This document shows positions 1 to 36,388 of a stretch of DNA of 38,278 bases, piece by piece (the stretch's first letter is position 1; the number at the start of each line of letters is the position of its first letter). Where the stretch lies: the IMG/VR virus record IMGVR_UViG_3300038520_001418, positions 1-38,278 of that record. One strand, given 5' to 3'. The stretch is from a virus. Lineage: Duplodnaviria; Caudoviricetes. Under the pieces are notes generated by a model. That model saw nothing but the letters and a program-made list of their open reading frames with translations, did no database searches and had not been told where the DNA came from. A program made the position numbers and the translations under genes.

Positions 1-93
1 CTATACAAGGAGCAACAAATCATCCTTTAATGTTTGTAACTAATAACAGTGAAAAAATGAGGTTAGATAGCTCTGGTAATTTAGGAATTGGCA
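1..93 (+). repeat. 93-bp exact direct repeat of 34662-34754
   Basis: Direct comparison: ctatacaagg...ggaattggca is identical in both places. Confidence 0.95.
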
Positions 94-2162
94 TAACTTC
101 GCCAAGTTCTTATAATAGTGGATCAGATAATTTAGTTGTTGGTGGGACAAGTGGTGACAACGGAATAACAATAGCTACAGGTACAACCAATGGTGGTTTG
201 CTCGCATTTGCTGACGGAACTTCTGGCAATGCTGCATATCGTGGTTACATACAATACGATCATAATACTGACTTTTTAGCTGTAGGATCTGCTGGCTCAG
301 AACGCATGAGGATTGATAGCTCTGGACATCTATTAGTGGGTACAACTGATAACAATGTAGCAGATAATTCTGGTACATCTAACAGTGGTTTTAACGTAAG
401 AAGTTCAGGTCGTGTTCTTATTGCTGAACCACAAAATGCAGGGCTTTGGGTAAATCGTTTAGGAGATGATGGTGATATTGCAGTTTTTCGTAAAGATGGT
501 ACTACTGTAGGGAGTATTAGAGGTGATTCAGGTGAAATATCAGTATCTTCAAGTGGTGGGGCGCATTATACATTTGAAGGCAGTGCATTTTATGGTTCAG
601 ATGAAGATAGAGATTTAGGAAAATCTAACAAGCGTTTTAAAGACCTCTACCTTACTGGAAAAATTACTGGAGCAACTCAAGTTACCCAAGATGTGAATAC
701 ATCTAGCCTTGCACTTGCTGGTGGCACAGACAGTAATGTTGGTGCAAACATGATAGTATATGGTGGTTCGCATTCATCATTAGCTAGCGTTGTAAGGTTT
801 CGTAATGGTAGCACAGACACTGCTAGGATAGATAGTTCTGGTAATGTATTGGTGGGTACTACATCATTAACTACAGGTACATTAGGTAGTTCAAATACGT
901 TTTTAGAACTTTCGGCTGGTACAAATAATGGCTCTGGAACTTTAATTTTATCAAGAAACACAACTACAGATGATAACGAAGTAGGTGGGGTAAGATTTGC
1001 TAATCAAAACAATGGAGATGATGATGGATTAGATGCAGACGGTAAATTGATTGCTGCAATTAGTGCAAGATTACAAACAAGTGATAGTAATGCTGGTGAT
1101 GATAGTGGAGGACATTTAGTTTTTTATACAAAACCTGAAGCTGGTAATTATGCAGAACGCATGAGGATAGATAGCAATGGTGACGTTCAAATTGGAACAA
1201 ATCTCAGTAGTGGTGCAAAGCTAACACTATATGGGTCAGATGCTGCTACAACTTTTCAGGGTTCAACAACTGGTACAGGATCGGCTAATGGTTTTACAGT
1301 TGGAAATAATGGTATTGTGAATACTTTTGTTTGGAACTATGAAAATGGACACATGCAATTTGCTACCAATAACACAGAACGCATGAGGATAGATAGCTCT
1401 GGTAATTTATTGGTGGGTACGACCGATACAAGTCTTTACAACAATTCTGGTTCTGGAGAAGGTTTATCATATTTTCCAAGTCAATTTTTAACAGTTGCCA
1501 CATATCAGCAAGAAACAGCTATTTTTAATAGATTATCAAATGATGGAACGATTGTTCAGTTTCGCAAAGATGGTGCTACTGTGGGGATTATTGGGGTGGG
1601 TGGCTCATCTGCACAGCCAGTAATAGGCAGTAACAATGCAACTGCAGGTGGAACTGCGGCAGGTCTTAGATTTGATCGTGCAAACAATTCTATTCAACCT
1701 TGGAATGTTGTGTCAAATGCTTCAGCTGACGACACCATTGACCTTGGATATTCTTCTATTCGTTTTGATGACATATACGCTACTAACGGAACAATCCAAA
1801 CATCAGACGAGAATGAAAAACAAGATATAGCATCTATGACTACAGCAGAATTAGCTGTGGGTAAGCGTTTATCAACATTATTTAAGACCTTTAGATGGAA
1901 AAGCAAAGTCACAGAAAAGGCAGACAAAGCTAGAACACACTCTGGTATTGTTGCTCAAGAAGTTAAGGCAGCTTTTGAAGCAGAGGGTTTAGATGCTACT
2001 AAGTATGCTTTGTTTTGCAGTGACACTTGGACAAATGATGATGGTAAAGAACAAACAAGGATGGGTGTTAGGTATCCAGAATTATTAAGTTTTATTGCAA
2101 GTTATAATGAAAGCAGATTTACAGCAATAGAAGCAAGATTAGCTAAATTAGAAGGAGGATAG
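3..2162 (+). CDS. Tail fibre, C-terminal part (5'-truncated), ending in an intramolecular chaperone (peptidase S74-like) domain
   Basis: Frame is open to the window edge. Repeated ERMRIDSSGNxxVGTT motifs; DDIYATNGTIQTSDENEK cleavage-type motif; HSGIVAQEV, GVRYPEL and a terminal coiled coil. Confidence 0.9.
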   Translation: MQGATNHPLMFVTNNSEKMRLDSSGNLGIGITSPSSYNSGSDNLVVGGTSGDNGITIATGTTNGGLLAFADGTSGNAAYRGYIQYDHNTDFLAVGSAGSERMRIDSSGHLLVGTTDNNVADNSGTSNSGFNVRSSGRVLIAEPQNAGLWVNRLGDDGDIAVFRKDGTTVGSIRGDSGEISVSSSGGAHYTFEGSAFYGSDEDRDLGKSNKRFKDLYLTGKITGATQVTQDVNTSSLALAGGTDSNVGANMIVYGGSHSSLASVVRFRNGSTDTARIDSSGNVLVGTTSLTTGTLGSSNTFLELSAGTNNGSGTLILSRNTTTDDNEVGGVRFANQNNGDDDGLDADGKLIAAISARLQTSDSNAGDDSGGHLVFYTKPEAGNYAERMRIDSNGDVQIGTNLSSGAKLTLYGSDAATTFQGSTTGTGSANGFTVGNNGIVNTFVWNYENGHMQFATNNTERMRIDSSGNLLVGTTDTSLYNNSGSGEGLSYFPSQFLTVATYQQETAIFNRLSNDGTIVQFRKDGATVGIIGVGGSSAQPVIGSNNATAGGTAAGLRFDRANNSIQPWNVVSNASADDTIDLGYSSIRFDDIYATNGTIQTSDENEKQDIASMTTAELAVGKRLSTLFKTFRWKSKVTEKADKARTHSGIVAQEVKAAFEAEGLDATKYALFCSDTWTNDDGKEQTRMGVRYPELLSFIASYNESRFTAIEARLAKLEGG

Positions 2163-3449: not shown

Positions 3450-3802
3450 TACTTACAGCTATAAAAATGATTGGCTCTCTTGCTACATCTTGGATGGATG
3501 GCAAAGTACAAACACAAAAGATAAAAGCAGAGATACAAAAGAAGCAACTAACAGGTGAAATAGATTGGGATATAGAAGCTATCAAAGCTACACAATCAAG
3601 CTGGAAAGATGAATGGATTACCATATTGCTATCAATACCTTTTCTTCTTTGCTTTATAAATGACACGACAAGAGAGATGGCATTTGCTGGTTTCCAAGCA
3701 TTAGAACAAGCACCAGCATGGTATACATATTCTTTTGGAGTTGTGATAGCTGCATCATTTGGTATTCGATCAGTAACTAAATTTTTTGGAGGTAAAAAAT
3801 AA
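3446..3802 (+). CDS. Putative holin (3TM, GTA-holin-like)
   Basis: SSWKDEW...SFGIRS pattern, TM segments, basic C-terminus, directly upstream of the endolysin. Confidence 0.7.
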   Translation: MILTAIKMIGSLATSWMDGKVQTQKIKAEIQKKQLTGEIDWDIEAIKATQSSWKDEWITILLSIPFLLCFINDTTREMAFAGFQALEQAPAWYTYSFGVVIAASFGIRSVTKFFGGKK

Positions 3803-4311
3803 TGAAAGAAAACTTTGATAAATGTTTAGAAATGATTTTGCATCACGAAGGAGGATATGTAAATCACCCAAAAGATCCAGGTGGCGAAACAAATCTTGGC
3901 GTAACTAAAAGAGTTTATGAAGAGTGGGGCGGTCAAAAAAATATGAAAGATTTAACAGTAGAAGATGTTGCGCCCATCTACGAAAAAAATTATTGGGGTC
4001 GTGCTAAGTGTGATCAACTTCCATCTGGATTAGATTTAGCTGTATTTGATTGGTCAGTTAACAGCGGTGTAGGCAGAGCAGTTAAAAAATTACAAAAGAT
4101 GATTGGCACTGTAGCAGATGGTGGTATTGGGCCTAACACATTAAAAACACTTGAAGAGTATATACGCCATCATGGATTAGAAACAACGATTGAAAATTAC
4201 AAAGATATTAGACAGGCGTTTTATCGTAGTTTATCTACTTTTAATACTTTTGGAAAAGGCTGGACAAGAAGAAACAACGAAACATTGGAAGCTGCATTAA
4301 AGATGATTTAA
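3802..4311 (+). CDS. Endolysin, glycoside hydrolase family 108 with peptidoglycan-binding C-terminus
   Basis: HEGGYVNHPKDPGGETNLGVT catalytic motif; FDWSVNSG; ADGGIGPNTL; FGKGWTRR. Confidence 0.93.
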   Translation: MKENFDKCLEMILHHEGGYVNHPKDPGGETNLGVTKRVYEEWGGQKNMKDLTVEDVAPIYEKNYWGRAKCDQLPSGLDLAVFDWSVNSGVGRAVKKLQKMIGTVADGGIGPNTLKTLEEYIRHHGLETTIENYKDIRQAFYRSLSTFNTFGKGWTRRNNETLEAALKMI

Positions 4312-4331: not shown

Positions 4332-4359
4332 AGAGCCACTTATGTGGCTCTTTTTTTTT
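4332..4359 (+). terminator. Intrinsic terminator after the endolysin; the hairpin also borders the array transcript arriving from the other side
   Basis: AGAGCCAC-TTAT-GTGGCTCT followed by a T run. Confidence 0.85.
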
Positions 4360-4363
4360 ATGC

Positions 4364-4643
4364 AAAACGAAACTCAACACAACGAAACGGAACCTAACCG
4401 AACAGAACATACCATTACCGACTTAACGGAACTAAACACTACGCAACTGAACCCAACTTTACATAACATAACCGCCTCAACAAAACACATCGAAACTGAA
4501 CGCAACTTAACGTAACATAACCGCCTTAACACAACTCAACTCAACCAAACCTAACGGAACACAACGGTACTCAACGTGACCGACTTAACAGAACGTAACT
4601 GAACCGAACCTAACGAAACGCAACATAACGTAACATAACCGAC
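4364..4643 (-). ncRNA. Pentamer-repeat array: five units of G(T/G)CG-(GTT-NN)9-11; putative guide-RNA array
   Basis: 52 pentamers counted by hand, 45 with exact GTT. Units 4643-4585, 4584-4526, 4525-4477, 4476-4423, 4422-4364. The repeat structure is directly visible; the RNA role is inferred. Confidence 0.8.
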
Positions 4644-5162
4644 TTACGCTGCTTCTTCCTTAACTGTTTTAGCTTTTAGTTCTTGAAGGATGCTATCTAT
4701 TTCACTAACATCGACATTTAATAAAGAACAAGTTCCTAAATATCTTTTTTGCCAAGATTTTAAATCACGCAAAGCTTGTAAAGCTAATTCTGTCATTGTA
4801 TCTGTTTCTTTAACATCAACCGATACGTAACCACCACCATTGGCTCTATTATTAATAGGAGAAATAAGTGATGGTACATCAACGACTTCAACTTTTAAGT
4901 TTTCTATTTTAGATGGTTCAGGTATTTCAGATATATTAATTTTAATTCTAAGACCTGTAACAAACTGTCTAGCCATATTTTCTCTATGTTTGTCTGCCAT
5001 TTCTTCATCAGACGCACCAAAAAAAAGATTGTAAACTTTATGATCTGTTTGATTTCTTAACCAATCTACAAATTCGGAAGGAACATAGATGTTCCTCCCT
5101 GTTTTATTTAGATAGTCATCAATAATATCTTGCCTATCTTGCTTTGTAAAACGAAGTGACAT
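4644..5162 (-). CDS. 172-aa protein of unknown function, coupled to the RAMP gene
   Basis: TAATG overlap at 5162; its stop codon abuts the array. Confidence 0.85.
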   Translation of the reverse strand: MSLRFTKQDRQDIIDDYLNKTGRNIYVPSEFVDWLRNQTDHKVYNLFFGASDEEMADKHRENMARQFVTGLRIKINISEIPEPSKIENLKVEVVDVPSLISPINNRANGGGYVSVDVKETDTMTELALQALRDLKSWQKRYLGTCSLLNVDVSEIDSILQELKAKTVKEEAA

Positions 5163-5917
5163 TATGCAGCCCTCCTTATAACTTCTTCTTTATAAAAGTC
5201 ATAAAGTTCTTGGGTTTCTGCATCATTTATAATGATGTCTTTCATCGCTTTTTCTTGAGCTTTTCTACCAATCTTAGTTCTAGTTTGCCAAACATCTTTA
5301 AATTGGTCATTACCTTCAAAATCAACAAACCAAGATCCAAAGTTTCCTTTACCTTTTTCTTGCCTGTTATCACCAATACCGCAAATCATCCCTGCATTTT
5401 GCAACAGAGCTACAATAGAATGCTGTGAAAGTGTTGGGGTAACAAATGCAATGTCAACTTCTGCACACCATTCATTGACAATAGCTCTTGTACGAATGTC
5501 AGGTGTTTTATTCATATCACTAGACCTGACAACATCCATATAAAGCTTTGGGGTTCCCCAAATAGATATTTTTTGTTGAGGTAAAAAAATCAAACGATTA
5601 ACAGATGTTTTGTTTACACCACTTGTTTCAAGGGCAGCCGTTGCCATAGCCCCCTTTACACCAGAAGCAGGAAAACCTAATAGGGTATCTCCATCTGCCA
5701 TCTTATGAATAGATGATCTAAACTCTAGTTCTGGATTATGCTTTATGTCTTTCTTCTGTGCAGCTGTCTTACGACCAGCACCAATAAGCAAATCTCTCTT
5801 AGCTTTTTCAGCCATACGATTAAAAATAATAGGGGTATGCCCTATCATTCTTAAAGTAATTCTACCTTGCTTGAGCGCATCAATAGTTACATTTGTATTT
5901 GTATTTTTTTTAATCAT
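5162..5917 (-). CDS. RAMP-superfamily (Cas7/Csm3-like) RNA-binding protein
   Basis: N-terminal strand ITLRMIGHTPII; FPASGVKGAMATAA (compare the RAMP motif IPGSSLKGALR); C-terminal Gly-rich loop GIGDNRQEKGKGNFG. ATG at 5917 preferred because of the GGAG RBS. Confidence 0.75.
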   Translation of the reverse strand: MIKKNTNTNVTIDALKQGRITLRMIGHTPIIFNRMAEKAKRDLLIGAGRKTAAQKKDIKHNPELEFRSSIHKMADGDTLLGFPASGVKGAMATAALETSGVNKTSVNRLIFLPQQKISIWGTPKLYMDVVRSSDMNKTPDIRTRAIVNEWCAEVDIAFVTPTLSQHSIVALLQNAGMICGIGDNRQEKGKGNFGSWFVDFEGNDQFKDVWQTRTKIGRKAQEKAMKDIIINDAETQELYDFYKEEVIRRAA

Positions 5918-6143
5918 TTTCTTCTCCAAAATATTTATGTTTTTCCAGACTATTTTCTTTAATAATAAACCTCTCTGGAATATAAGGCAGTGTAATACCG
6001 CAAGGTTTATTATTTTTTTTCTTTTTTAAGTCATTGTATGACCATCGACATTCAGGTGAACAAAATTTTTTATTACTGTTAATATAAGTAAAAAAAAATC
6101 CACAAGATACACAAGCTTTTTTACTCATAATGTTTACTTTCAA
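5910..6143 (-). CDS. Small Cys4 zinc-finger protein
   Basis: CVSC...KFCSPEC. Confidence 0.65.
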   Translation of the reverse strand: MKVNIMSKKACVSCGFFFTYINSNKKFCSPECRWSYNDLKKKKNNKPCGITLPYIPERFIIKENSLEKHKYFGEEND

Positions 6144-6408
6144 TCATTTCTCTTGCAGCTTCTAAAGCTTTTTGTGAAATATAAAGAAGTTCTTTTGAAT
6201 TACATTCACGAATAATTGCCTTGCCAAAAGTAAGTATAGTAATTCTACCTGGTGTAATCCCTATGGTCAGTTCGCAAGAACTTTTCAAGATCAGCGGCCT
6301 TGACATAACGTTTTCGCCCATCGCCCACTGATGGAATTTGTCCTGACTTGATAATTCGGATTGTTCTTTTATAATATTTTTCTTCACAACTACCCCATAA
6401 TTTTTCAC
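6121..6408 (-). CDS. Hypothetical protein (true start probably internal)
   Basis: Fills the operon gap, but the 5' part overlaps 6245-6460. Confidence 0.4.
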   Translation of the reverse strand: MKNYGVVVKKNIIKEQSELSSQDKFHQWAMGENVMSRPLILKSSCELTIGITPGRITILTFGKAIIRECNSKELLYISQKALEAAREMIESKHYE

Positions 6409-6460
6409 AAACTTCTTTGGCGTCTAATAAATTTTTATTGATTAAATCTGCTTGCATCAA
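6245..6460 (-). CDS. Excisionase/MerR-type HTH DNA-binding protein
   Basis: LLDAKEVCEKL...IKSGQIPSVGDGRKRYVKAADLEKFL pattern; GAGGAG RBS. Confidence 0.7.
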   Translation of the reverse strand: MMQADLINKNLLDAKEVCEKLWGSCEEKYYKRTIRIIKSGQIPSVGDGRKRYVKAADLEKFLRTDHRDYTR

Positions 6461-6749
6461 ATTTCTCCTCTTTAACTGGTTTTATTTCTTCTTGTCCAGG
6501 CAATTTATTTGCAAAAAGGTTAAAGCTGGCAATCAATTGATGATCAGTGTAGTTATCAGAATGATTAGTATCGCTTAACCTTACACTTACAACAATTCCA
6601 TTTTCTTGCATAAGTTTATGAATTTTGGTTACAATAGGCATAGCTATTTCTGCATTTTGTTTCTTAGCAGAGTTTAACCAGGCACTTGCTACAAGTTTTT
6701 TGTTATCGTGATTAATGTTTCCATTTCCTAGATGTGGTCTTTTACTCAT
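6435..6749 (-). CDS. Hypothetical protein
   Basis: Coupled ORF in the leftward operon. Confidence 0.65.
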   Translation of the reverse strand: MSKRPHLGNGNINHDNKKLVASAWLNSAKKQNAEIAMPIVTKIHKLMQENGIVVSVRLSDTNHSDNYTDHQLIASFNLFANKLPGQEEIKPVKEEKFDASRFNQ

Positions 6750-7477
6750 TACATATTCCTTTCATTAAAGTTTTTTTGTTTGTTTTCCATTGTAGACATG
6801 ATGCGAGAAACGCTCTCGCTTTCTTTCTCATTTAAAGTTTTTAAAATTGGCATCCAACGACTTGCAAATTTTGATAGCTGTGGATTGCTTTCGACACGAT
6901 GAAGCTCTTGCGACATTTGACCAAAAATTTCCATCGTATTATTTTCATCGGCAACATTAGGTATAGGCTCTAAATCTTCAACCTGTTTTTTAGGTGCCGT
7001 TGATTCAATAACCTTATTATATTCGGCAATGCCATCATCAGGTCTTGGCGTAATGTCTTTCATATTACGATTTGGTGATTTGTCAGGTTGACTTTCTTTA
7101 AAATCGTCCGCTTCTTCTTCAGAATAAACATCCCCTGCAATATCAATAAGCTTTAATATAACCCTATCTTTAGCTCTTTTTTCTGCCATAGCGTATGGGT
7201 AACTGTTCTTATTATTGTAAGGTGTGGCTTCACCAATTGACCATTCACTGCGATCACCAATAGAGCCTGACACATTCAATATACAAATTTTTTCTTTTGG
7301 ATCAGAATGAATAATCGTTGGTTCGCTAAATGTTATTCTTTTGTATAAAGCTATTTTTTCTAAAGCTTTGTGCAATACCACAGGCGTACCATGACAATCC
7401 CACAGACTTTCTTTTTCTGATAAGCCTATTTCTTTTAAAAGAGATAAAAGCTTTTCTGGAACTTGCCTTTTAGCCAT
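6749..7477 (-). CDS. Putative single-strand annealing recombinase (Rad52/Erf/RecT-like)
   Basis: YPYAMAEKRAKDRVILKL...VYSEEEADDF motif; neighbours a nuclease gene; start reset to MAKRQV with an RBS. Confidence 0.6.
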   Translation of the reverse strand: MAKRQVPEKLLSLLKEIGLSEKESLWDCHGTPVVLHKALEKIALYKRITFSEPTIIHSDPKEKICILNVSGSIGDRSEWSIGEATPYNNKNSYPYAMAEKRAKDRVILKLIDIAGDVYSEEEADDFKESQPDKSPNRNMKDITPRPDDGIAEYNKVIESTAPKKQVEDLEPIPNVADENNTMEIFGQMSQELHRVESNPQLSKFASRWMPILKTLNEKESESVSRIMSTMENKQKNFNERNM

Positions 7478-7826
7478 CCTTATTCTCCAAACTTGCAAGG
7501 CCCATAGGCGTAATTCCCCACACAGTTTCAGAGTTTCCACGACTATTTTTCCTACGAAGCTTTGTTTTTTGCAAAGCACCAGCATTAAAAAGTTCGGTAA
7601 TTCTAGGCTTAATTGTAAACACATCATGACTTAAAGCCTCACAAACCTCATGTCCTGTTAAACCTTGTAAATCATAATTGCTTGTTGCGTCAGATACTGC
7701 AATTAAAATCTTTTGATGTAACCCACGCTCTTTGTTAAGATAAGTCATAATTTTTTTGTAAGCTAATTGCTCAGTGTCACTTGCGTTATTACGAAGTGAT
7801 TTGCTTATTTCTAAATTAAGTTGCAT
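7470..7826 (-). CDS. Winged-helix DNA-binding protein
   Basis: GLTGHEVCEAL...IKPRITELFNAGAL...RRKNSRGNSETVW. Confidence 0.7.
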   Translation of the reverse strand: MQLNLEISKSLRNNASDTEQLAYKKIMTYLNKERGLHQKILIAVSDATSNYDLQGLTGHEVCEALSHDVFTIKPRITELFNAGALQKTKLRRKNSRGNSETVWGITPMGLASLENKDG

Positions 7827-8814
7827 TTATTTCTCCCATTATTTTTTGCAATTTAATGTTTTGCTCCAATGCCTTTTCTTTTATTTTTTTAATATAATCA
7901 ACATACACTGGAGGTTCTTTCCAATCGATTGATTGAAAATCTGGTGTTTCCATGCGTATAAGATCATAACGATCTTTTGCCACACGAAGTTTAAATTCTA
8001 TGCTTTGTAGCTTTTCAATAATGACTTGTGATAAATCATCAAGATATTCTTTTGTAAGTTGGTGACAGTTATCAGCGTTTAGTATGCGATAGTCAGATTT
8101 GTTTACATAGAGTAACGAAGGCAACCTTCCTGATAACATGTAAAATCCACAAATCTGATAAACGTTTCTCTGGTCAAATATTCCATTTAAAGTTTTAGGA
8201 AGTGATGCAGCTCTTACCCCTGATTTTGTTTCAGCTGGTTTTGACCATTTTGTTTTTAAATCAAGAAAATTATTAAAATCTGGATAGGTTAGGTATGGAA
8301 TTTCTAAGCCAGGAATCTTGCCAAACAATTCTCGTTCACCAAATATGCGATTTTCCTGTGAAAGTGTCTCTTGAACGCCTTTAACAGCATTTTTAACTAA
8401 GTCTGAAAACTCTTCCTTACAGACGGCTTTTTTAGCCTCGTCTGAGCCTTGATCCCATGTTCGGCTACGATAGGATTCTAAAGCCTCAATACCCTCTTCT
8501 ATGGCCTTCTCTGAAGGCCAATTTTCTAGCAGTATACGATTCACAGCTGATTGAACTAAAATACCACTAATCATAACTGCTGATTGGCTACCATTGCGCT
8601 TTTGATCTAATATATCCAATAATGCAAAAGCATCTTGCTTTTGATCATGGGTAGTTTCTTTTGATTGTATTACACCCCATGCCGCATCAACCTTTGGTCT
8701 AATAAAAACTTTTTCAATAAAAACTTTTGATAAATCTTTGCTAGCATTACTATGGTGATAATAATGAAATCTTGTTGACCATGATGGAGCTAACGGTATG
8801 TCTTTTAAACTCAT
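7816..8814 (-). CDS. PD-(D/E)XK exonuclease-like protein
   Basis: YPDF...LDLKTK motif followed by YQICGFY; upstream of the annealing protein. Confidence 0.6.
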   Translation of the reverse strand: MSLKDIPLAPSWSTRFHYYHHSNASKDLSKVFIEKVFIRPKVDAAWGVIQSKETTHDQKQDAFALLDILDQKRNGSQSAVMISGILVQSAVNRILLENWPSEKAIEEGIEALESYRSRTWDQGSDEAKKAVCKEEFSDLVKNAVKGVQETLSQENRIFGERELFGKIPGLEIPYLTYPDFNNFLDLKTKWSKPAETKSGVRAASLPKTLNGIFDQRNVYQICGFYMLSGRLPSLLYVNKSDYRILNADNCHQLTKEYLDDLSQVIIEKLQSIEFKLRVAKDRYDLIRMETPDFQSIDWKEPPVYVDYIKKIKEKALEQNIKLQKIMGEINAT

Positions 8815-8902
8815 AAAAATCCCTGTAAAACTAATTTGTCCTACGAAGATCATAATTCAGCTTTTTGTCTTTTGCAAGTGTTTTTTATTTTGATCTAAAA
8901 AC

Positions 8903-10231: not shown

Positions 10232-10380
10232 TTAATAGCATATAATATTATTAGCTATAAATTATTAGCTGATAATTTAAGAGTCCATAAGAGCCAAAAA
10301 ACCTTCCCAAAAGGTTTTTTTGGCTTCTTTATTAGCATGCTATTAATAGCATTATTAGCATATAATATTATAGCATATAA
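10232..10380. repeat. AT-rich TAGC/ATAT repeat patch around an inverted repeat (10292-10325)
   Basis: tagcatataatatta occurs twice, many ttagc/tagc; agccaaaaaacctt...aaggtttttttggct. Confidence 0.65.
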
Positions 10381-13094: not shown

Positions 13095-13670
13095 GTGTTA
13101 ATTATAAGCTATCTATTATAAGCATATTATGCAATTATATTATTAGCTATTAATTATATGCTATTAATAAGAGCAAATAATATTTAAAGCATTTATCTAT
13201 TTTTAGCATTTGTTGTTTATTAGCTTTAATCATTTGGTGCATATAACTGCTGTTATTGCTTGCCATATCATGCATGCGTGTATGCTTATTATAGCTATTA
13301 TTAGCTTGTAGACTTATAAGCTATTGATTTTATTGCAATGATCACAGGCTTATTAGCTACGAACATTACAGCAATGCATTATTTGCTAGGCTTTTGTTGC
13401 TTTTATTTTACAAGCAGTCAATAACCCCACCCTCGCTACATGCAGCGCGTTACATATGTCATATATGCTATCAAAACTAGCATCACCCACACACACAGTC
13501 CCACTTACATAAAAGCAACACACCGCTGCAAAATAAAATAATTGACGTTATACGCATAAAAGATCTTGCGCTATGTACTCAAATAAGCTATATGTTGTGT
13601 ATAATAGCATTTTCTTCTCCAATGATTGACAATGAGGATATGCAGAATGCTATTCATATTATTTGTCCAA
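13095..13670. other. Long non-coding region between divergent early and late arms (candidate origin, genome end or pac region)
   Basis: No ORF; AT-rich TAGC/GCTA repeats. Confidence 0.5.
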
Positions 13671-31489: not shown

Positions 31490-34400
31490 ATGACAGTTTC
31501 ATCATCAACAAACTCTGTGATACTCAGTGCCAATGGTACAGACCATAGTTTTGCTTTCACTTTTAAGATTTTTGCAGCAAGCGATCTTAAAGTCATTGTA
31601 AGAAGTGCGGCTGGCGTTGAAACGGTCAAAACATTAAACAGTGAATATATTATTGCTGATAGCTCTGTGGGAAATGCCAATGGGGGCAATGTTCTATTTA
31701 AGTTTAATACTGGCACCTCAAGCGATGCTCATTACAGCACAACTGATTTTCGCCCTGCAAATGGTGAAAAGGTTATTTTAAGAAGAGAGCAGCCACAAAC
31801 ACAAGGTTTAGACCTTGTTGCTAATGATCCTTTTCCAGCAGAAAGTTTTGAAGAAAGCTTAGATAAATTGACCTTTATGGTTCAAGATGTACAAGAAGCT
31901 GTTGACAGATCTTTAAAATTTAGTCGTTCTAATTTATTAGATAGTTCTGGATCTCAAATAAGTTCTACTTATGTCGATATTGAAGAAGATACCACAGCTA
32001 GGGCAAACAAATTATTATCGTTTGACAGCACAGGTACACCCATTGCTACACAAGAGGTAGGTACGGCTAAAGGAGATTGGGCTGCTAGCACTGTTTATCA
32101 AGAGCGTGATATTGTAAGAGATACATCAACTAATAATTTGTTTATTGTAAATACGGCTCACACAAGTAGTGGTTCAGAACCATTAACAAGTAACGCAAAT
32201 AGCTCAAAATATACTATAATTCTTAATAATGGAGCTTACACCAACATAACTGCTTCTGGTGTTATCACTGGATCAACTATTGAGCCAACTGGAGATACAT
32301 CCTCTGGAGATAATGCTGCAATTGGTTATACAAGTGATGAAGGTTTGATTTTAACAGGTCAAGGGGCTGTTTCTGATATTACATTTAAAAATGATGTTGA
32401 TGTAACAGTTTTTACTATTCCAACAGGCACAGATGATATTTTATTTCCAGATAATGCAAAAATATTAATTGGAAGTGGTAGTGATCTAAGAATTTATCAC
32501 GAAAGTGATAATTCTTATATTGATGAAAGGGGTTCTGGTAGGCTCTATATTTTGTCAGATACACAAGTTGAGATAGGTAATGCTGGAAATGCAACAAATG
32601 CTAGGTTTAATTCTGGTGGCTCTTCAATTCTTCATTACAACAACAGCAATAAATTTGAAACATCAGACACAGGAGCTACACTTACAGGTGCATTAACTGT
32701 TTCAAGTCATGTTGTAACAAGTGAAATTCAACTTACATCTGGGCCACAACCAGATGTGAGATTTGAAAGCACATCAGGTGGAGATAGATTTGATCTTGGT
32801 ATTGATGCAACTAGTGTTTTCCGATTAAGAAATATCAATGATAGTCGAGATGATTTAAAATTCGATGGAAGTGGTGTTGCTACTTTTGGTGGGGCTGTAA
32901 ATGTTACAGGCGCATTAACTGTAACAGGTGGGATTGCAGATAGTAATCTTAACACAATTACAACAGCTGACAAAGTATCTGGTGCTGCTATTCAGATTGA
33001 TGGTGCAACAGATGGAACAAGTATCACTATAGTTGATGCTGACAAGCTTTTAATTGATGATAATGGTACAACAAAATATATTAATGCAAGTCAATTAAAT
33101 AGTTATATTTCCGCTGCTGCAAGTGCTGTTGCTGCTGATAACATTACAGCTGGTGATGCAGCAGTAACAATTACAACTACATCAGGTAATATTACAATAG
33201 ATGCTCAAGCTAATAATAGTAATATTATTTTTAAAGGTACAGATGGTTCTGTTGATACCACTTTCTTAACTATTTCTGGTGCTGATGCTGGGCAAGCAAC
33301 ATTTAATGGTAAAATTGTAGCAGATGCTGGTATTGATGTTGATGATTTTAACATTCATAATGATGCTATAACTAAATCCGCTGGTAATTTTTCATTAAAT
33401 GCAGATAGTAATATTTTATTGAATACGCACTATGATGGCTCTACATCTGGTGGCATAATTGCTTTAAAAGAAAATAATACAAATTTTGGTCAGCTTCGTA
33501 ACAACAGTGGCGAGTTACAAATAAAATCAGGGGCTTCAGATACGACAGCTTTATCATTTTCTGGTGCTGATGCTACTTTTTCTGGTACAATAAATACAAC
33601 AAGTACTAATAAACTACAATTTGGTGATAGCGGCACATATATTCATCAATCTGCTGATGGTGTTTTAGATTTAGTTTCAGATACAGAAATTGAGATTAAT
33701 GCTACGACAATTGACGTAAATGGTAATTTAGATGTAAGTGGAAGTGCTACTATTGGTAGTGATGTAACATCTGCAAGTGGTAACTTTGTTACAACAGGTT
33801 CTAATATTGCTCTAAAACATTCAAGCGGAGAAAACTTTTTTACAGCTACCAAAGATGGTGCTTCTTTCATATATCACGACGCTTATGGTATTTTAGGTAC
33901 AGTAGCTACAAATGCTGTTGCTATAGGCACGACAAACGGTAATACATTTACATTAGATACTCAAAGTACCTTTTTGGAAATAGGTAATAGTGGAATTGGC
34001 GGTGGTACAGATGCTGGTACTTTAGTTCTTTCCGCAACATCTAATGCAAATGATGAAAGAATTGGTGATATACGTTTCGCTAATGTAGCAAATGCTGATG
34101 ATGATGGCACAGATGCTGATGGTAAAATGGTTGCTAGAATCCAGACTAAATCTGTTACCTCTGACAGTAATGCTGGTGATGATAGTGGTGGTACGATTGT
34201 CTTTAGCACCAAACCTGAAGCTGGCAGCATTGCTACTGCTTTGACACTTGGATCAGATCAATCAGCTACTTTTGGTGGTGATGTAACTTTTACTGGTGCA
34301 AACTACAATGTTGTTTGGGATAAGTCTGATAATGCCCTAGAGTTTGGAGATAATGCTAAAGCTATTTTTGGTGCAGGTGGTGACTTAGAAATTTATCACA

Positions 34401-36388
34401 GTGGAAGTCATAGCATAATTAAAGATGGAGGAACTGGTAATTTACAGATTAATGCAGGAAACTTTAATGTTAATAATGTTGCAAATTCTGCTAATATAAT
34501 TGTTGGAAACGATGGAGGTGCAGTTAAGCTTTTTCATAATGGTAACAACAAACTAGAAACAGCATCTTTTGGTGCTACTCTTAGTGGTTATGCTTATATT
34601 ACGGAAAATTCAGGCACTACACAACTTTATCTAAGATCAAATTACAATAGCACTGGGCCAGCTATACAAGGAGCAACAAATCATCCTTTAATGTTTGTAA
34701 CTAATAACAGTGAAAAAATGAGGTTAGATAGCTCTGGTAATTTAGGAATTGGCACAACTTCTCCACAACAACTTCTACATGTAAGTGCAAATAATCCGGG
34801 TGGTAAGATTAGACTTGAGATGGGTCAAAGTGGTGTAGCAAATGGAGATGTTACAGGTGAAATTCAGTTCTATCATAATGACTCTAGTGGTGCAGGTGTT
34901 AACGCTGATATTAAAGGTATTTGTACGAGTGCCATAGGTGCAGGTGCTTTGACATTTGGCACAGGAACAACTTCTACAACAGAACGCATGAGGATAGATA
35001 GTAATGGAAGAGTTGGTATTGGAGAAAGTAGCCCAGATACTCTTTTGCACATTTCCGATTCTGTTTCTCCAACAATACGAATTACAAACACTGATCCAAC
35101 AGCGAGTGTGGATCAAACTATTTCAGAGATTCAGTTTGAAGGATCAGATAGTTCTACAAATGCTGATGGTATTAGAGCAAAAATTACTGCCTTATATGGT
35201 GGGGTTGGTGGATTTACTTCATTGCAGTTTTTTACAGCAGGGGAAAACACTGAAACCCTTTCAAGAATTTTAGATTTACATTCAAATAGAGCAACCATCA
35301 ATGAAGATGGTGCAAATATTGACTTTCGTGTTGAGAGTAGTGGCAGTGAAAATATGCTATTTGTGGATGCAGGTAATGACAGAGTTGGTATTGGCACGAA
35401 CAGTCCTACTTTTAATTTAACTGTGCAAAGAAATGATAATGAAACTTATAGCACAACAGGTTTTCCTAATGGCACAGGACATTTTTTTAAAAAGAATAAT
35501 TCTGGTACTGCCAATCAATATAGCAGTATTAGACTGCAAGTTACGAATGATAATGGTTCTTCAAATGCTCAAGCGTGTATCACAGCTATAAAGACTTCTG
35601 CTAGTACTCATGCAACTACACTAGCATTTCAAACAAGACAATCAGGAGGGTCTGTTGCTGAAGCTTTTAGAGTGGATGATAGCCAAAGAGTAATTGTTGG
35701 TAAGACTAGTAATTCAAGCTCTACAGCAGGTACAACACTTTATAGCAATGGTAAAATAGAAGGAGTTAGAGATGGTGATGTAGTGCATTCATTTAATAGA
35801 CTCAGCTCAAATGGCACTATTCTATCTTTTCAAAAAGACGGAACTACTGTGGGAAGTATTAATTCACGGGCAAGTTTAGTAACTACTATTATACTTGATC
35901 CTAGAAGTAGTGGATTTGGAATTACTGGAACAGGTAACGCCTTTTTTCCCACCGACGAAACAGGAAATAGCACTGATGGCACGAAGGATGTTGGTACATC
36001 TGGAAACCGCTTTGATGACATTCACGCAACCAACGGCACAATTCAAACATCAGATAAAAACGAAAAAAATACTATAGTAGACAGTGATTTAGGTTTAGAT
36101 TTTATAAAAAGACTTTCTCCAAAAAGTTATAAATTTAATAATAAAACTAGAACGCACTATGGATTAATTGCTCAAGATGTTGAAACTGTATTATCTGACA
36201 TAAGTAAATCAAGTACCGATTTTGCAGGTTTTATTAAAGATGATATTAGTGAAGACAAAGATGGTAGTCATTATCGTTATGGTCTTAGGTACACTGAATT
36301 AATTGCACCTATAATTAAAGCATTGCAAGAAGCAAATGCAAAAATAGAAACACTAGAAATTGAAGTTGCAAAGTTAAAAGGAGAATAA
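31490..36388 (+). CDS. Main tail fibre with T7 gp17-like N-terminal anchor and C-terminal S74-like chaperone
   Basis: NG...F.F.F.IF...DL; LDKLT..VQ anchor; GIGT.SP repeats; QTSD, YGLIAQDVE, LRYTELIAP. Confidence 0.92.
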   Translation: MTVSSSTNSVILSANGTDHSFAFTFKIFAASDLKVIVRSAAGVETVKTLNSEYIIADSSVGNANGGNVLFKFNTGTSSDAHYSTTDFRPANGEKVILRREQPQTQGLDLVANDPFPAESFEESLDKLTFMVQDVQEAVDRSLKFSRSNLLDSSGSQISSTYVDIEEDTTARANKLLSFDSTGTPIATQEVGTAKGDWAASTVYQERDIVRDTSTNNLFIVNTAHTSSGSEPLTSNANSSKYTIILNNGAYTNITASGVITGSTIEPTGDTSSGDNAAIGYTSDEGLILTGQGAVSDITFKNDVDVTVFTIPTGTDDILFPDNAKILIGSGSDLRIYHESDNSYIDERGSGRLYILSDTQVEIGNAGNATNARFNSGGSSILHYNNSNKFETSDTGATLTGALTVSSHVVTSEIQLTSGPQPDVRFESTSGGDRFDLGIDATSVFRLRNINDSRDDLKFDGSGVATFGGAVNVTGALTVTGGIADSNLNTITTADKVSGAAIQIDGATDGTSITIVDADKLLIDDNGTTKYINASQLNSYISAAASAVAADNITAGDAAVTITTTSGNITIDAQANNSNIIFKGTDGSVDTTFLTISGADAGQATFNGKIVADAGIDVDDFNIHNDAITKSAGNFSLNADSNILLNTHYDGSTSGGIIALKENNTNFGQLRNNSGELQIKSGASDTTALSFSGADATFSGTINTTSTNKLQFGDSGTYIHQSADGVLDLVSDTEIEINATTIDVNGNLDVSGSATIGSDVTSASGNFVTTGSNIALKHSSGENFFTATKDGASFIYHDAYGILGTVATNAVAIGTTNGNTFTLDTQSTFLEIGNSGIGGGTDAGTLVLSATSNANDERIGDIRFANVANADDDGTDADGKMVARIQTKSVTSDSNAGDDSGGTIVFSTKPEAGSIATALTLGSDQSATFGGDVTFTGANYNVVWDKSDNALEFGDNAKAIFGAGGDLEIYHSGSHSIIKDGGTGNLQINAGNFNVNNVANSANIIVGNDGGAVKLFHNGNNKLETASFGATLSGYAYITENSGTTQLYLRSNYNSTGPAIQGATNHPLMFVTNNSEKMRLDSSGNLGIGTTSPQQLLHVSANNPGGKIRLEMGQSGVANGDVTGEIQFYHNDSSGAGVNADIKGICTSAIGAGALTFGTGTTSTTERMRIDSNGRVGIGESSPDTLLHISDSVSPTIRITNTDPTASVDQTISEIQFEGSDSSTNADGIRAKITALYGGVGGFTSLQFFTAGENTETLSRILDLHSNRATINEDGANIDFRVESSGSENMLFVDAGNDRVGIGTNSPTFNLTVQRNDNETYSTTGFPNGTGHFFKKNNSGTANQYSSIRLQVTNDNGSSNAQACITAIKTSASTHATTLAFQTRQSGGSVAEAFRVDDSQRVIVGKTSNSSSTAGTTLYSNGKIEGVRDGDVVHSFNRLSSNGTILSFQKDGTTVGSINSRASLVTTIILDPRSSGFGITGTGNAFFPTDETGNSTDGTKDVGTSGNRFDDIHATNGTIQTSDKNEKNTIVDSDLGLDFIKRLSPKSYKFNNKTRTHYGLIAQDVETVLSDISKSSTDFAGFIKDDISEDKDGSHYRYGLRYTELIAPIIKALQEANAKIETLEIEVAKLKGE

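What the first reader, a model, noticed from the sequence alone, without database searches (positions are those of the whole stretch)
4364..4643. Two-level periodic array: 5-nt GTT-NN pentamers grouped in five units with a conserved junction
On the minus strand each unit is G(T/G)CG followed by 11, 11, 9, 10 and 11 pentamers (59, 59, 49, 54, 59 nt). 45 of 52 triplets are GTT while NN varies widely. A slippage microsatellite would homogenise all five positions instead. The junction T(A/G)A-G(T/G)CGGT breaks the phase and looks like a processing or handle site. The stop codon TAA of the upstream gene supplies the first junction. The RNA would be G/U-rich and probably weakly structured.
Basis: seen in the sequence. 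Interest (0 to 1): 0.88.

Follow-up and report, generated by a model that had tools for sequence, protein, structure and literature searches.

The report
Marine phage VIPR with GTT guides
The five-base repeat array is real and sits behind a Cas7-like gene in a marine phage, so it is very likely the guide-RNA array of a VIPR system (a CRISPR-related RNA-guided DNA silencer published in 2026), here with GTT in place of the usual GGY; its targets are not established.

Summary
Observation confirmed: five units (59, 59, 49, 54, 59 nt), 45 of 52 triplets GTT, NN near random; 22 four-repeat matches against 0 in shuffles. A 255-aa protein folds as a RAMP/Cas7, and its only solved sequence relative is SUSP1 Vipr; a conserved 172-aa partner follows it. 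This is a VIPR locus in the published 'staggered' layout, in an HTVC010P-like marine phage. Relatives keep the junction and the 5n+4 unit length and mostly carry different NN. Across 52 arrays of the family the triplet slides from canonical GGC to GTT as locus GC falls (rho -0.90), while NN composition barely follows. The almost pure GTT clade also has Asn where SUSP1 has the Trp that stacks on guide G2 (one event, correlation only). Targets are unproven. The best lead is unit 4, whose family spells a conserved HNH motif of phage HNH-helicase genes (18/20 for this copy). No RNA ends could be tested. This scan has found staggered VIPR loci in other genomes before. New variant of a known kind.

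The parts
4364..4643 (-). Staggered guide (vrRNA-like) array: five units of G(T/G)CG + (GTT-NN)n
   Evidence: same layout in relatives
4585..4643 (-). Unit 1, 11 pentamers; no close copy in relatives (best 11/20 NN); no convincing target
4526..4584 (-). Unit 2, 11 pentamers; inner 18 NN bases match, codon-aligned, an HTH replication-initiator gene of a marine podophage, but no other guide converges on that family
4477..4525 (-). Unit 3, 9 pentamers; 13/18 NN shared with a unit of L001; never scanned against a whole collection
4423..4476 (-). Unit 4, 10 pentamers; shared with L001, L002, L004-L006; under the 1-nt skip rule its family spells a conserved HNH motif (candidate target: phage HNH-ResIII helicase gene)
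4364..4422 (-). Unit 5, 11 pentamers; no convincing target
4644..5162 (-). Partner gene (candidate vap), 172 aa, function unknown; its stop codon abuts the array
   Evidence: homologue found in 50 of 68 Vipr loci; weak phrog_15946 hit; model pLDDT 49.5
5162..5929 (-). vipr gene, stand-alone RAMP/Cas7-fold protein, 255 aa (relatives start 4 codons later, 251 aa)
5336..5380 (-). Glycine-rich loop of Vipr (residues 184-198); Asn188 (5366-5368) aligns with SUSP1 Trp178
4332..4351 (+). Hairpin with a U-run on the + strand: terminator-like site of the convergent endolysin gene, just past the array's 3' end
   Evidence: endolysin 3802..4311

Best explanation
The array lies directly behind a stand-alone RAMP-fold gene and a conserved partner gene and is likely the guide-RNA array of a VIPR system: it would be transcribed with them and cut at or near each junction into five guides of 49-59 nt, which the protein would use to silence DNA of rival phages. 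By analogy with SUSP1 VIPR (published, not shown here), one Vipr subunit binds each pentamer, buries the GTT triplet and displays NN. The NN pairs then read double-stranded DNA two bases at a time, skipping every third base, and block transcription. GTT is the AT-rich end of a G(G/T)Y scaffold used throughout this family. The near-complete switch to T at position 2 coincides with loss of the aromatic residue that stacks on G2 in SUSP1. Shown here: array, gene order, fold, family-wide co-occurrence, composition trend. Inferred: transcription, processing, binding, skip rule, targets.
For: Only PDB sequence hit at E<=1 for the single protein is SUSP1 Vipr (E 0.00095); it is the best of 4 hits with the family profile (E 0.00062). 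AlphaFold model pLDDT 83.6 matches Csm3/Cas7/Cmr RAMPs (Foldseek best E 2e-5; VIA-align Z 8.7, rmsd 3.9, 155 aligned). It shares phrog_4652 with a Felixounavirus Vipr-like protein (E 9e-14 and 1e-96; hhalign probability 95%). SUSP1 D177, R179 and R138 align with D187, R189 and R148. Units are 5n+4 long in 49 of 51 junction-bounded units in the window and L001-L009, as a 1-nt stagger requires. High-GC relatives carry canonical GGY in the same layout: G at position 2 in 922 of 1241 pentamers. T at positions 2 and 3 tracks locus GC (rho -0.90, -0.87) but NN GC only weakly (0.31) over 52 arrays, as expected if NN answer to an outside target. No self-target signal.
Against: The triplet is not GGY, and in SUSP1 perturbing GGY abolished silencing (GTY is not among the substitutions listed). 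No target is established. Five of six guide-derived viral scans and the 401-genome scan gave only chance-like rows. The 1-nt skip rule showed no enrichment over skips 0, 2 and 3 in any pooled test. The sequence link to SUSP1 Vipr is weak and covers about 50 residues. The partner shows no detectable likeness to the Felixounavirus partner gene (probability 0.4%). The 52 arrays are related, so the correlations are not independent points.
Confidence: 0.9

Rival explanations
1. A decaying VIPR array: GTT comes from AT-biased drift of GGY and the guides no longer work.
For: The triplet follows genome GC; no firm target found; the window's copy of unit 4 fits its best candidate target less well (18/20) than relatives' copies (19/20).
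Against: G1 is invariant in the window (52 of 52) and phase is kept in 49 of 51 units. Both genes are intact. The clade is abundant (clusters of 14-95 members), and units turn over among relatives whose Vipr is 93-98% identical. T2 is more uniform here (419 of 464) than G2 is in the high-GC arrays (922 of 1241), which drift alone would not be expected to give.
Confidence: 0.05
2. A VIPR-type complex that reads targets by a different rule (other skip length, or RNA targets) because its binding pocket has changed.
For: No pooled enrichment for skip 1; Asn188 replaces the G2-stacking aromatic; the protein is about 50 aa longer than SUSP1 Vipr.
Against: The pooled tests almost certainly lacked the real target genomes, so they have little power. 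The two best leads (units 2 and 4) are codon-aligned under skip 1. Pentamer period and D187/R189/R148 are kept.
Confidence: 0.03
3. A non-guide DNA repeat (microsatellite, protein-binding iterons or a short repetitive ORF).
For: Short ORFs overlap the array (57 and 52 aa); the RNA is unstructured.
Against: NN are not homogenised. A period of 5 does not fit codons. The array travels with the RAMP gene into unrelated phage backbones. Arrays recur beside most relatives whose contigs extend far enough.
Confidence: 0.02

Closest known systems
VIPR systems with staggered vrRNA arrays (bioRxiv 10.64898/2026.04.26.720920 / PMC13142463, text and legend of fig. S18)
   Same: Lone RAMP gene plus one partner gene in a phage; units of 9-11 pentamers (published range 9-16); tail-less head-to-tail units offset by 1 nt; conserved triplet, hypervariable NN.
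   Different: The triplet is GTT. The paper's text gives GGY and the alternatives NNNGG, YNNNG and NNNNG and never mentions GTT or GUU. Its logos and data files could not be seen, so the type (I-VII) is not assigned.
Type II VIPR of Escherichia phage SUSP1 (PDB 36pp; bioRxiv 10.64898/2026.04.26.720927)
   Same: Homologous Vipr with G-loop D and R and thumb R aligned; same PHROG as its Felixounavirus counterpart.
   Different: SUSP1 guides are about 100 nt with a structured 3' tail; here there is no tail between units. Trp178 aligns with Asn188. The partner belongs to another family (phrog_15946 versus phrog_5926 for the Felixounavirus partner).
Non-canonical VIPR-like arrays of COMPASS/Evo-PIN (bioRxiv 10.64898/2026.10.21.760802)
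   Same: Fixed triplets other than GGY next to Vipr-like folds (21 clusters; examples GAC, CAC, WGT, TGH).
   Different: GTT is not named in the text but may be in fig. S10A, which could not be seen. The passages read do not link triplet to genome GC or to a pocket residue.
Class 1 CRISPR-Cas backbone proteins (Csm3, Cas7, Cmr)
   Same: RAMP fold.
   Different: No repeat-spacer array and no cas hit among the ORFs scanned; 8-16% sequence identity.

Membership tests
VIPR | Stand-alone RAMP protein with RRM core and glycine-rich loop, homologous to Vipr | tested here: met
VIPR | Minimal locus (vipr plus vap) with no CRISPR array or cas operon, mostly viral | tested here: met
   Phage genes around it and no cas family among 15-18 ORFs scanned; no CRISPR-like array and no Rfam match; partner homologue in 50 of 68 loci
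VIPR | Tracts of 9-16 pentamers, conserved triplet (GGY or a related consensus) alternating with hypervariable NN | tested here: met
   9-11 pentamers per unit; the same family uses GGY at high GC
VIPR | Discrete vrRNAs expressed and bound by Vipr | not testable with these tools
   Only assembled contigs of two RNA runs were available; they cannot show ends
VIPR | NN decode to natural DNA targets under the 1-nt skip rule | tested here: inconclusive
   One suggestive lead for unit 4, a weaker one for unit 2; no pooled enrichment
VIPR, staggered architecture | Units follow each other with a 1-nt offset and no tail | tested here: met
   49 of 51 units are 5n+4 nt; DNA level only
VIPR type II (SUSP1 / P. 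fulva) | Canonical GGY triplet | tested here: not met
   45 of 52 GTT, 1 GGT
VIPR type II (SUSP1 / P. fulva) | Structured 3' tail on each vrRNA | tested here: not met
   Units abut directly; array folding z 0.25
VIPR type II (SUSP1 / P. fulva) | vap1-type partner | tested here: inconclusive
   No profile match to the Felixounavirus partner, taken as a stand-in for vap1; different PHROG; model too poor for a fold search
CRISPR-Cas | Direct repeats separated by unique spacers, with cas genes (features recalled) | tested here: not met
Slippage microsatellite | Neighbouring units homogenised at all positions | tested here: not met
   3 of 47 adjacent NN identical, shuffled mean 2.9

The most novel reading that the evidence does not exclude
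A naturally re-coded VIPR: loss of the G2-stacking aromatic residue (Trp/Phe to Asn) has switched the protein's scaffold preference from GGY to GUU, giving an orthogonal guide format. The cassette moves between unrelated marine phages and keeps one shared guide aimed at the conserved HNH motif of an HNH-helicase replication gene of rival phages.
Probability: 0.3. Interest if true: 0.6.

Novelty: new variant of a known kind. Interest (0 to 1): 0.4.

Why it matters
The system class and the staggered layout are published, so this is not a new kind. It adds three things. First, a family-wide gradient showing that the guide scaffold follows genome composition while the targeting dinucleotides barely do. 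Second, a one-residue hypothesis for how Vipr reads scaffold position 2, testable with a single swap and useful for orthogonal programmable repressors. Third, evidence that a 98%-identical cassette sits in different phage backbones of an abundant marine phage group with mostly different guides, which makes guide acquisition and processing of tail-less arrays, both open questions, approachable in this clade.

Tried and rejected
Self or local targets: 52 guide rows against window plus 31 loci; >=80% matches in 8, 4 and 10 of 52 for skips 0, 1 and 2.

Unit 4, degenerate pattern, viral contigs: 21 rows. Eight are one intergenic hairpin beside a capsid region of an unrelated-looking phage family, and L034 matches the L001 copy 22/22 in a GC-0.49 phage; no other guide converged. 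Judged chance.

Unit 2: 13 rows; six reach 18/18 inner bases, three in a giant-virus gene and three in one marine podophage HTH replication initiator. Follow-up on 55 loci of that family with 47 guides gave no skip-1 excess (>=85%: 8, 7, 11, 8 for skips 0-3).

Unit 1: 6 + 6 rows, best 20/22 in a GC-0.61 contig. Unit 5: 7 rows, best 17/22. Unit 3 was not scanned in a collection.

Metagenome rows L180, L185 and L197 also fit the unit-4 majority 20/20, but out of frame in a chromosomal DnaJ-like gene. 401 genomes of G002's class (Alphaproteobacteria by the record title of L068): 4 matches at 2 mismatches, 0 for the reversed control, none in an HNH motif.

Expression: two metatranscriptome runs with small shares; one contig lies on 4708-4930 and one on 5439-5696 at depth 2-3, none on the array. 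Contigs cannot show ends or strand.

Host: not determined. The capsid is about 70% identical to pelagiphages of the HTVC010P group, the Vipr family in genomes is mostly alphaproteobacterial, and the integrase of L007 had no informative named relative.

Partner protein: no Pfam, PADLOC or PDB hit of note, unnamed Atlas clusters only, poor model. Promoter scan at chance level (19 against 17.7). No Rfam match.

Full report
Observation. The array is as described: five minus-strand units from 4643 to 4364, each G(T/G)CG plus 9-11 pentamers, 45 of 52 triplets GTT, NN entropy 1.93-1.94 bits. Four phased GTT occur 22 times, all here, and never in 100 shuffles. Adjacent NN are not homogenised (3 of 47, shuffled mean 2.9), and the RNA folds no better than shuffles.

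Context. The window is a whole 38-kb phage record with terminase, connector, capsid, tail fibres and endolysin; its capsid is about 70% identical to pelagiphages such as HTVC010P. The array closes the minus-strand block of genes that converges on the endolysin terminator. Directly upstream are a 172-aa ORF (4644..5162), whose stop codon abuts the array, and a 255-aa ORF (5162..5929).

The protein. The 255-aa protein has no Pfam hit. Its only PDB sequence match at E<=1 is SUSP1 Vipr (E 0.00095, residues 146-194), also the best of 4 with a 128-sequence profile. The model (pLDDT 83.6) matches Csm3, Cas7 and Cmr RAMPs; those libraries listed no Vipr structure. It shares phrog_4652 with a Felixounavirus protein whose aligned stretch is the same as SUSP1 Vipr's. 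It has 1626 homologues among 2161 candidates. The partner has a homologue in 50 of 68 Vipr loci, but its function stays unknown.

Literature, as seen. For 10.64898/2026.04.26.720920 I read parts 1-4 of 6 of the text and term passages, and for its PMC supplement a term search and part 5 of 5, legends only. It defines VIPR, the 1-nt skip rule, and staggered arrays whose guides overlap by 1 nt. For 10.64898/2026.04.26.720927 I read part 1 of 6: G2 is held by R138 and stacked by W178, G1 by H17 and D177, Y3 near R179. For 10.64898/2026.10.21.760802 I read passages and section 33: 21 clusters with non-canonical triplets. For 10.64898/2026.10.15.759431 I saw the listing and three passages. GTT/GUU as a scaffold was not found in the text of the three papers searched for it or in a further paper search; the structure paper was not searched for it. 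Figures and data files were not visible and may already contain it.

Relatives. One search gave 31 viral loci and one search gave 37 genome loci. In the window and L001-L009 (83-98% identity), 49 of 51 junction-bounded units are 5n+4 nt; over 48 distinct units, entropies are 0.23, 0.51, 0.48, 1.95 and 1.97 bits. Units are gained, lost and reordered, and only unit 4 has close copies (5 relatives, 17/20 NN at best). Among its six copies, read by eye, 2 of 30 triplet positions and 4 of 20 NN positions vary. First and last NN are biased and probably belong to the handle. The cassette is mobile: L001 has a 98%-identical Vipr among different neighbours (ATPase-like and helicase genes), while L007 has the window's neighbours plus an integrase.

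Why GTT. The family has three G-loop types: Asn (window, L001-L009, L066; 7 of the 120 listed homologues), Phe (112 of 120) and Trp. T at triplet position 2 is 419 of 464 in the Asn clade, 376 of 658 in a Trp clade of equal GC, and 95 of 260 in mid-GC Phe loci; genome loci have G in 922 of 1241. Those parsers kept only junction-bounded, in-phase units, and loci with under 18 pentamers were left out of the correlation (55 kept, 52 after removing duplicates). T2 and T3 track locus GC (rho -0.90, -0.87) and NN GC does so weakly (0.31). So GTT is mainly the AT-rich end of a G(G/T)Y scaffold, which ties this array to canonical VIPR. The extra step from 57% to 90% coincides with Asn at the W178-equivalent position; that is a single evolutionary event and only a hypothesis.

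Targets. Collection scans allow only exact patterns, so power was limited. Units 1, 2 and 5 gave chance-like rows, and the one follow-up, on a phage replication-initiator family matched by unit 2, showed no convergence. For unit 4, the metagenome scan gave 23 rows. L178 (GC 0.33) matches the majority of the guide copies 20/20, the window's copy 18/20 and the L001 and L004 copies 19/20. The match is codon-aligned in an HNH motif just upstream of a ResIII helicase. Seven fused homologues were inspected and five carry NGQALCP, so the copies' variants Leu/Val and Pro/Leu fall on natural alternatives. A pattern tuned afterwards hit this motif in 15 of 32 viral rows. All 5 checked are HNH-ResIII genes, two clearly inside phage replication or recombination modules. 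Against this lead: about 1.4 of 23 rows are expected at the majority combination by chance (my estimate), three other 20/20 rows are out of frame, and the tuning was post hoc. The window's copy matches the viral rows only 14-17 of 20, no second guide converged, and 401 genomes gave no HNH hit. I put this lead at about even odds.

Mechanism and verdict. Shown: array, fold, gene order, family-wide co-occurrence, scaffold gradient. Inferred from the published system: processing into 49-59-nt guides, one Vipr per pentamer, gapped DNA recognition, silencing of competing phages. It works like VIPR and meets every testable defining feature of the class, though not those of type II. Earlier scan notes report staggered VIPR loci in other genomes; they are unchecked and not counted as support. 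New variant of a known kind; interest 0.4.

Noticed in passing
L001:31-7813 versus L007:67-8367 and window 4644-8853: Nearly identical vipr-partner cassettes sit in different phage backbones (helicase/ATPase module in L001, L002, L004-L006; window-like early genes plus a tyrosine integrase in L007, and an integrase-like gene after the array in L003), so the cassette moves between phages.
   Followed up: partly
L010:4842-5601, L029:4841-5958: In the mid-GC Phe clade the array lies between vipr and the partner gene, behind a small hairpin, rather than after the partner.
   Followed up: partly
L007:5346-5624: The GTT array reads as a 92-aa open frame rich in V, R, F and Y; such spurious 'hypothetical proteins' may hide VIPR arrays in annotations.
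   Followed up: no
L009:5281-5400; L025 and L031 after the partner gene: A short extra ORF is inserted between the partner gene and the array.
   Followed up: no
hits H1-H30: Vipr homologues (28-34% identity) annotated as hypothetical proteins in Gordonia and Mycobacterium smegmatis phages, which are culturable and could serve as test systems; their arrays were not examined.
   Followed up: no
L067 and L076 (one contig, JAMHVU010000035.1): Two separate vipr loci about 34 kb apart on one Sphingobium MAG contig.
   Followed up: no
L178:1-1710: The helicase gene behind the HNH gene is split over two reading frames (real or assembly error); homologues are HNH-helicase fusions.
   Followed up: partly
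window 10232-10380 and 13128-13306: Short AT-rich repeats (TATTAGC-like) near divergent gene boundaries; possibly an origin or operator sites.
   Followed up: no
window 3-2162 and 31490-36388: Two tail-fibre-like genes, each with a C-terminal peptidase S74 chaperone domain.
   Followed up: no
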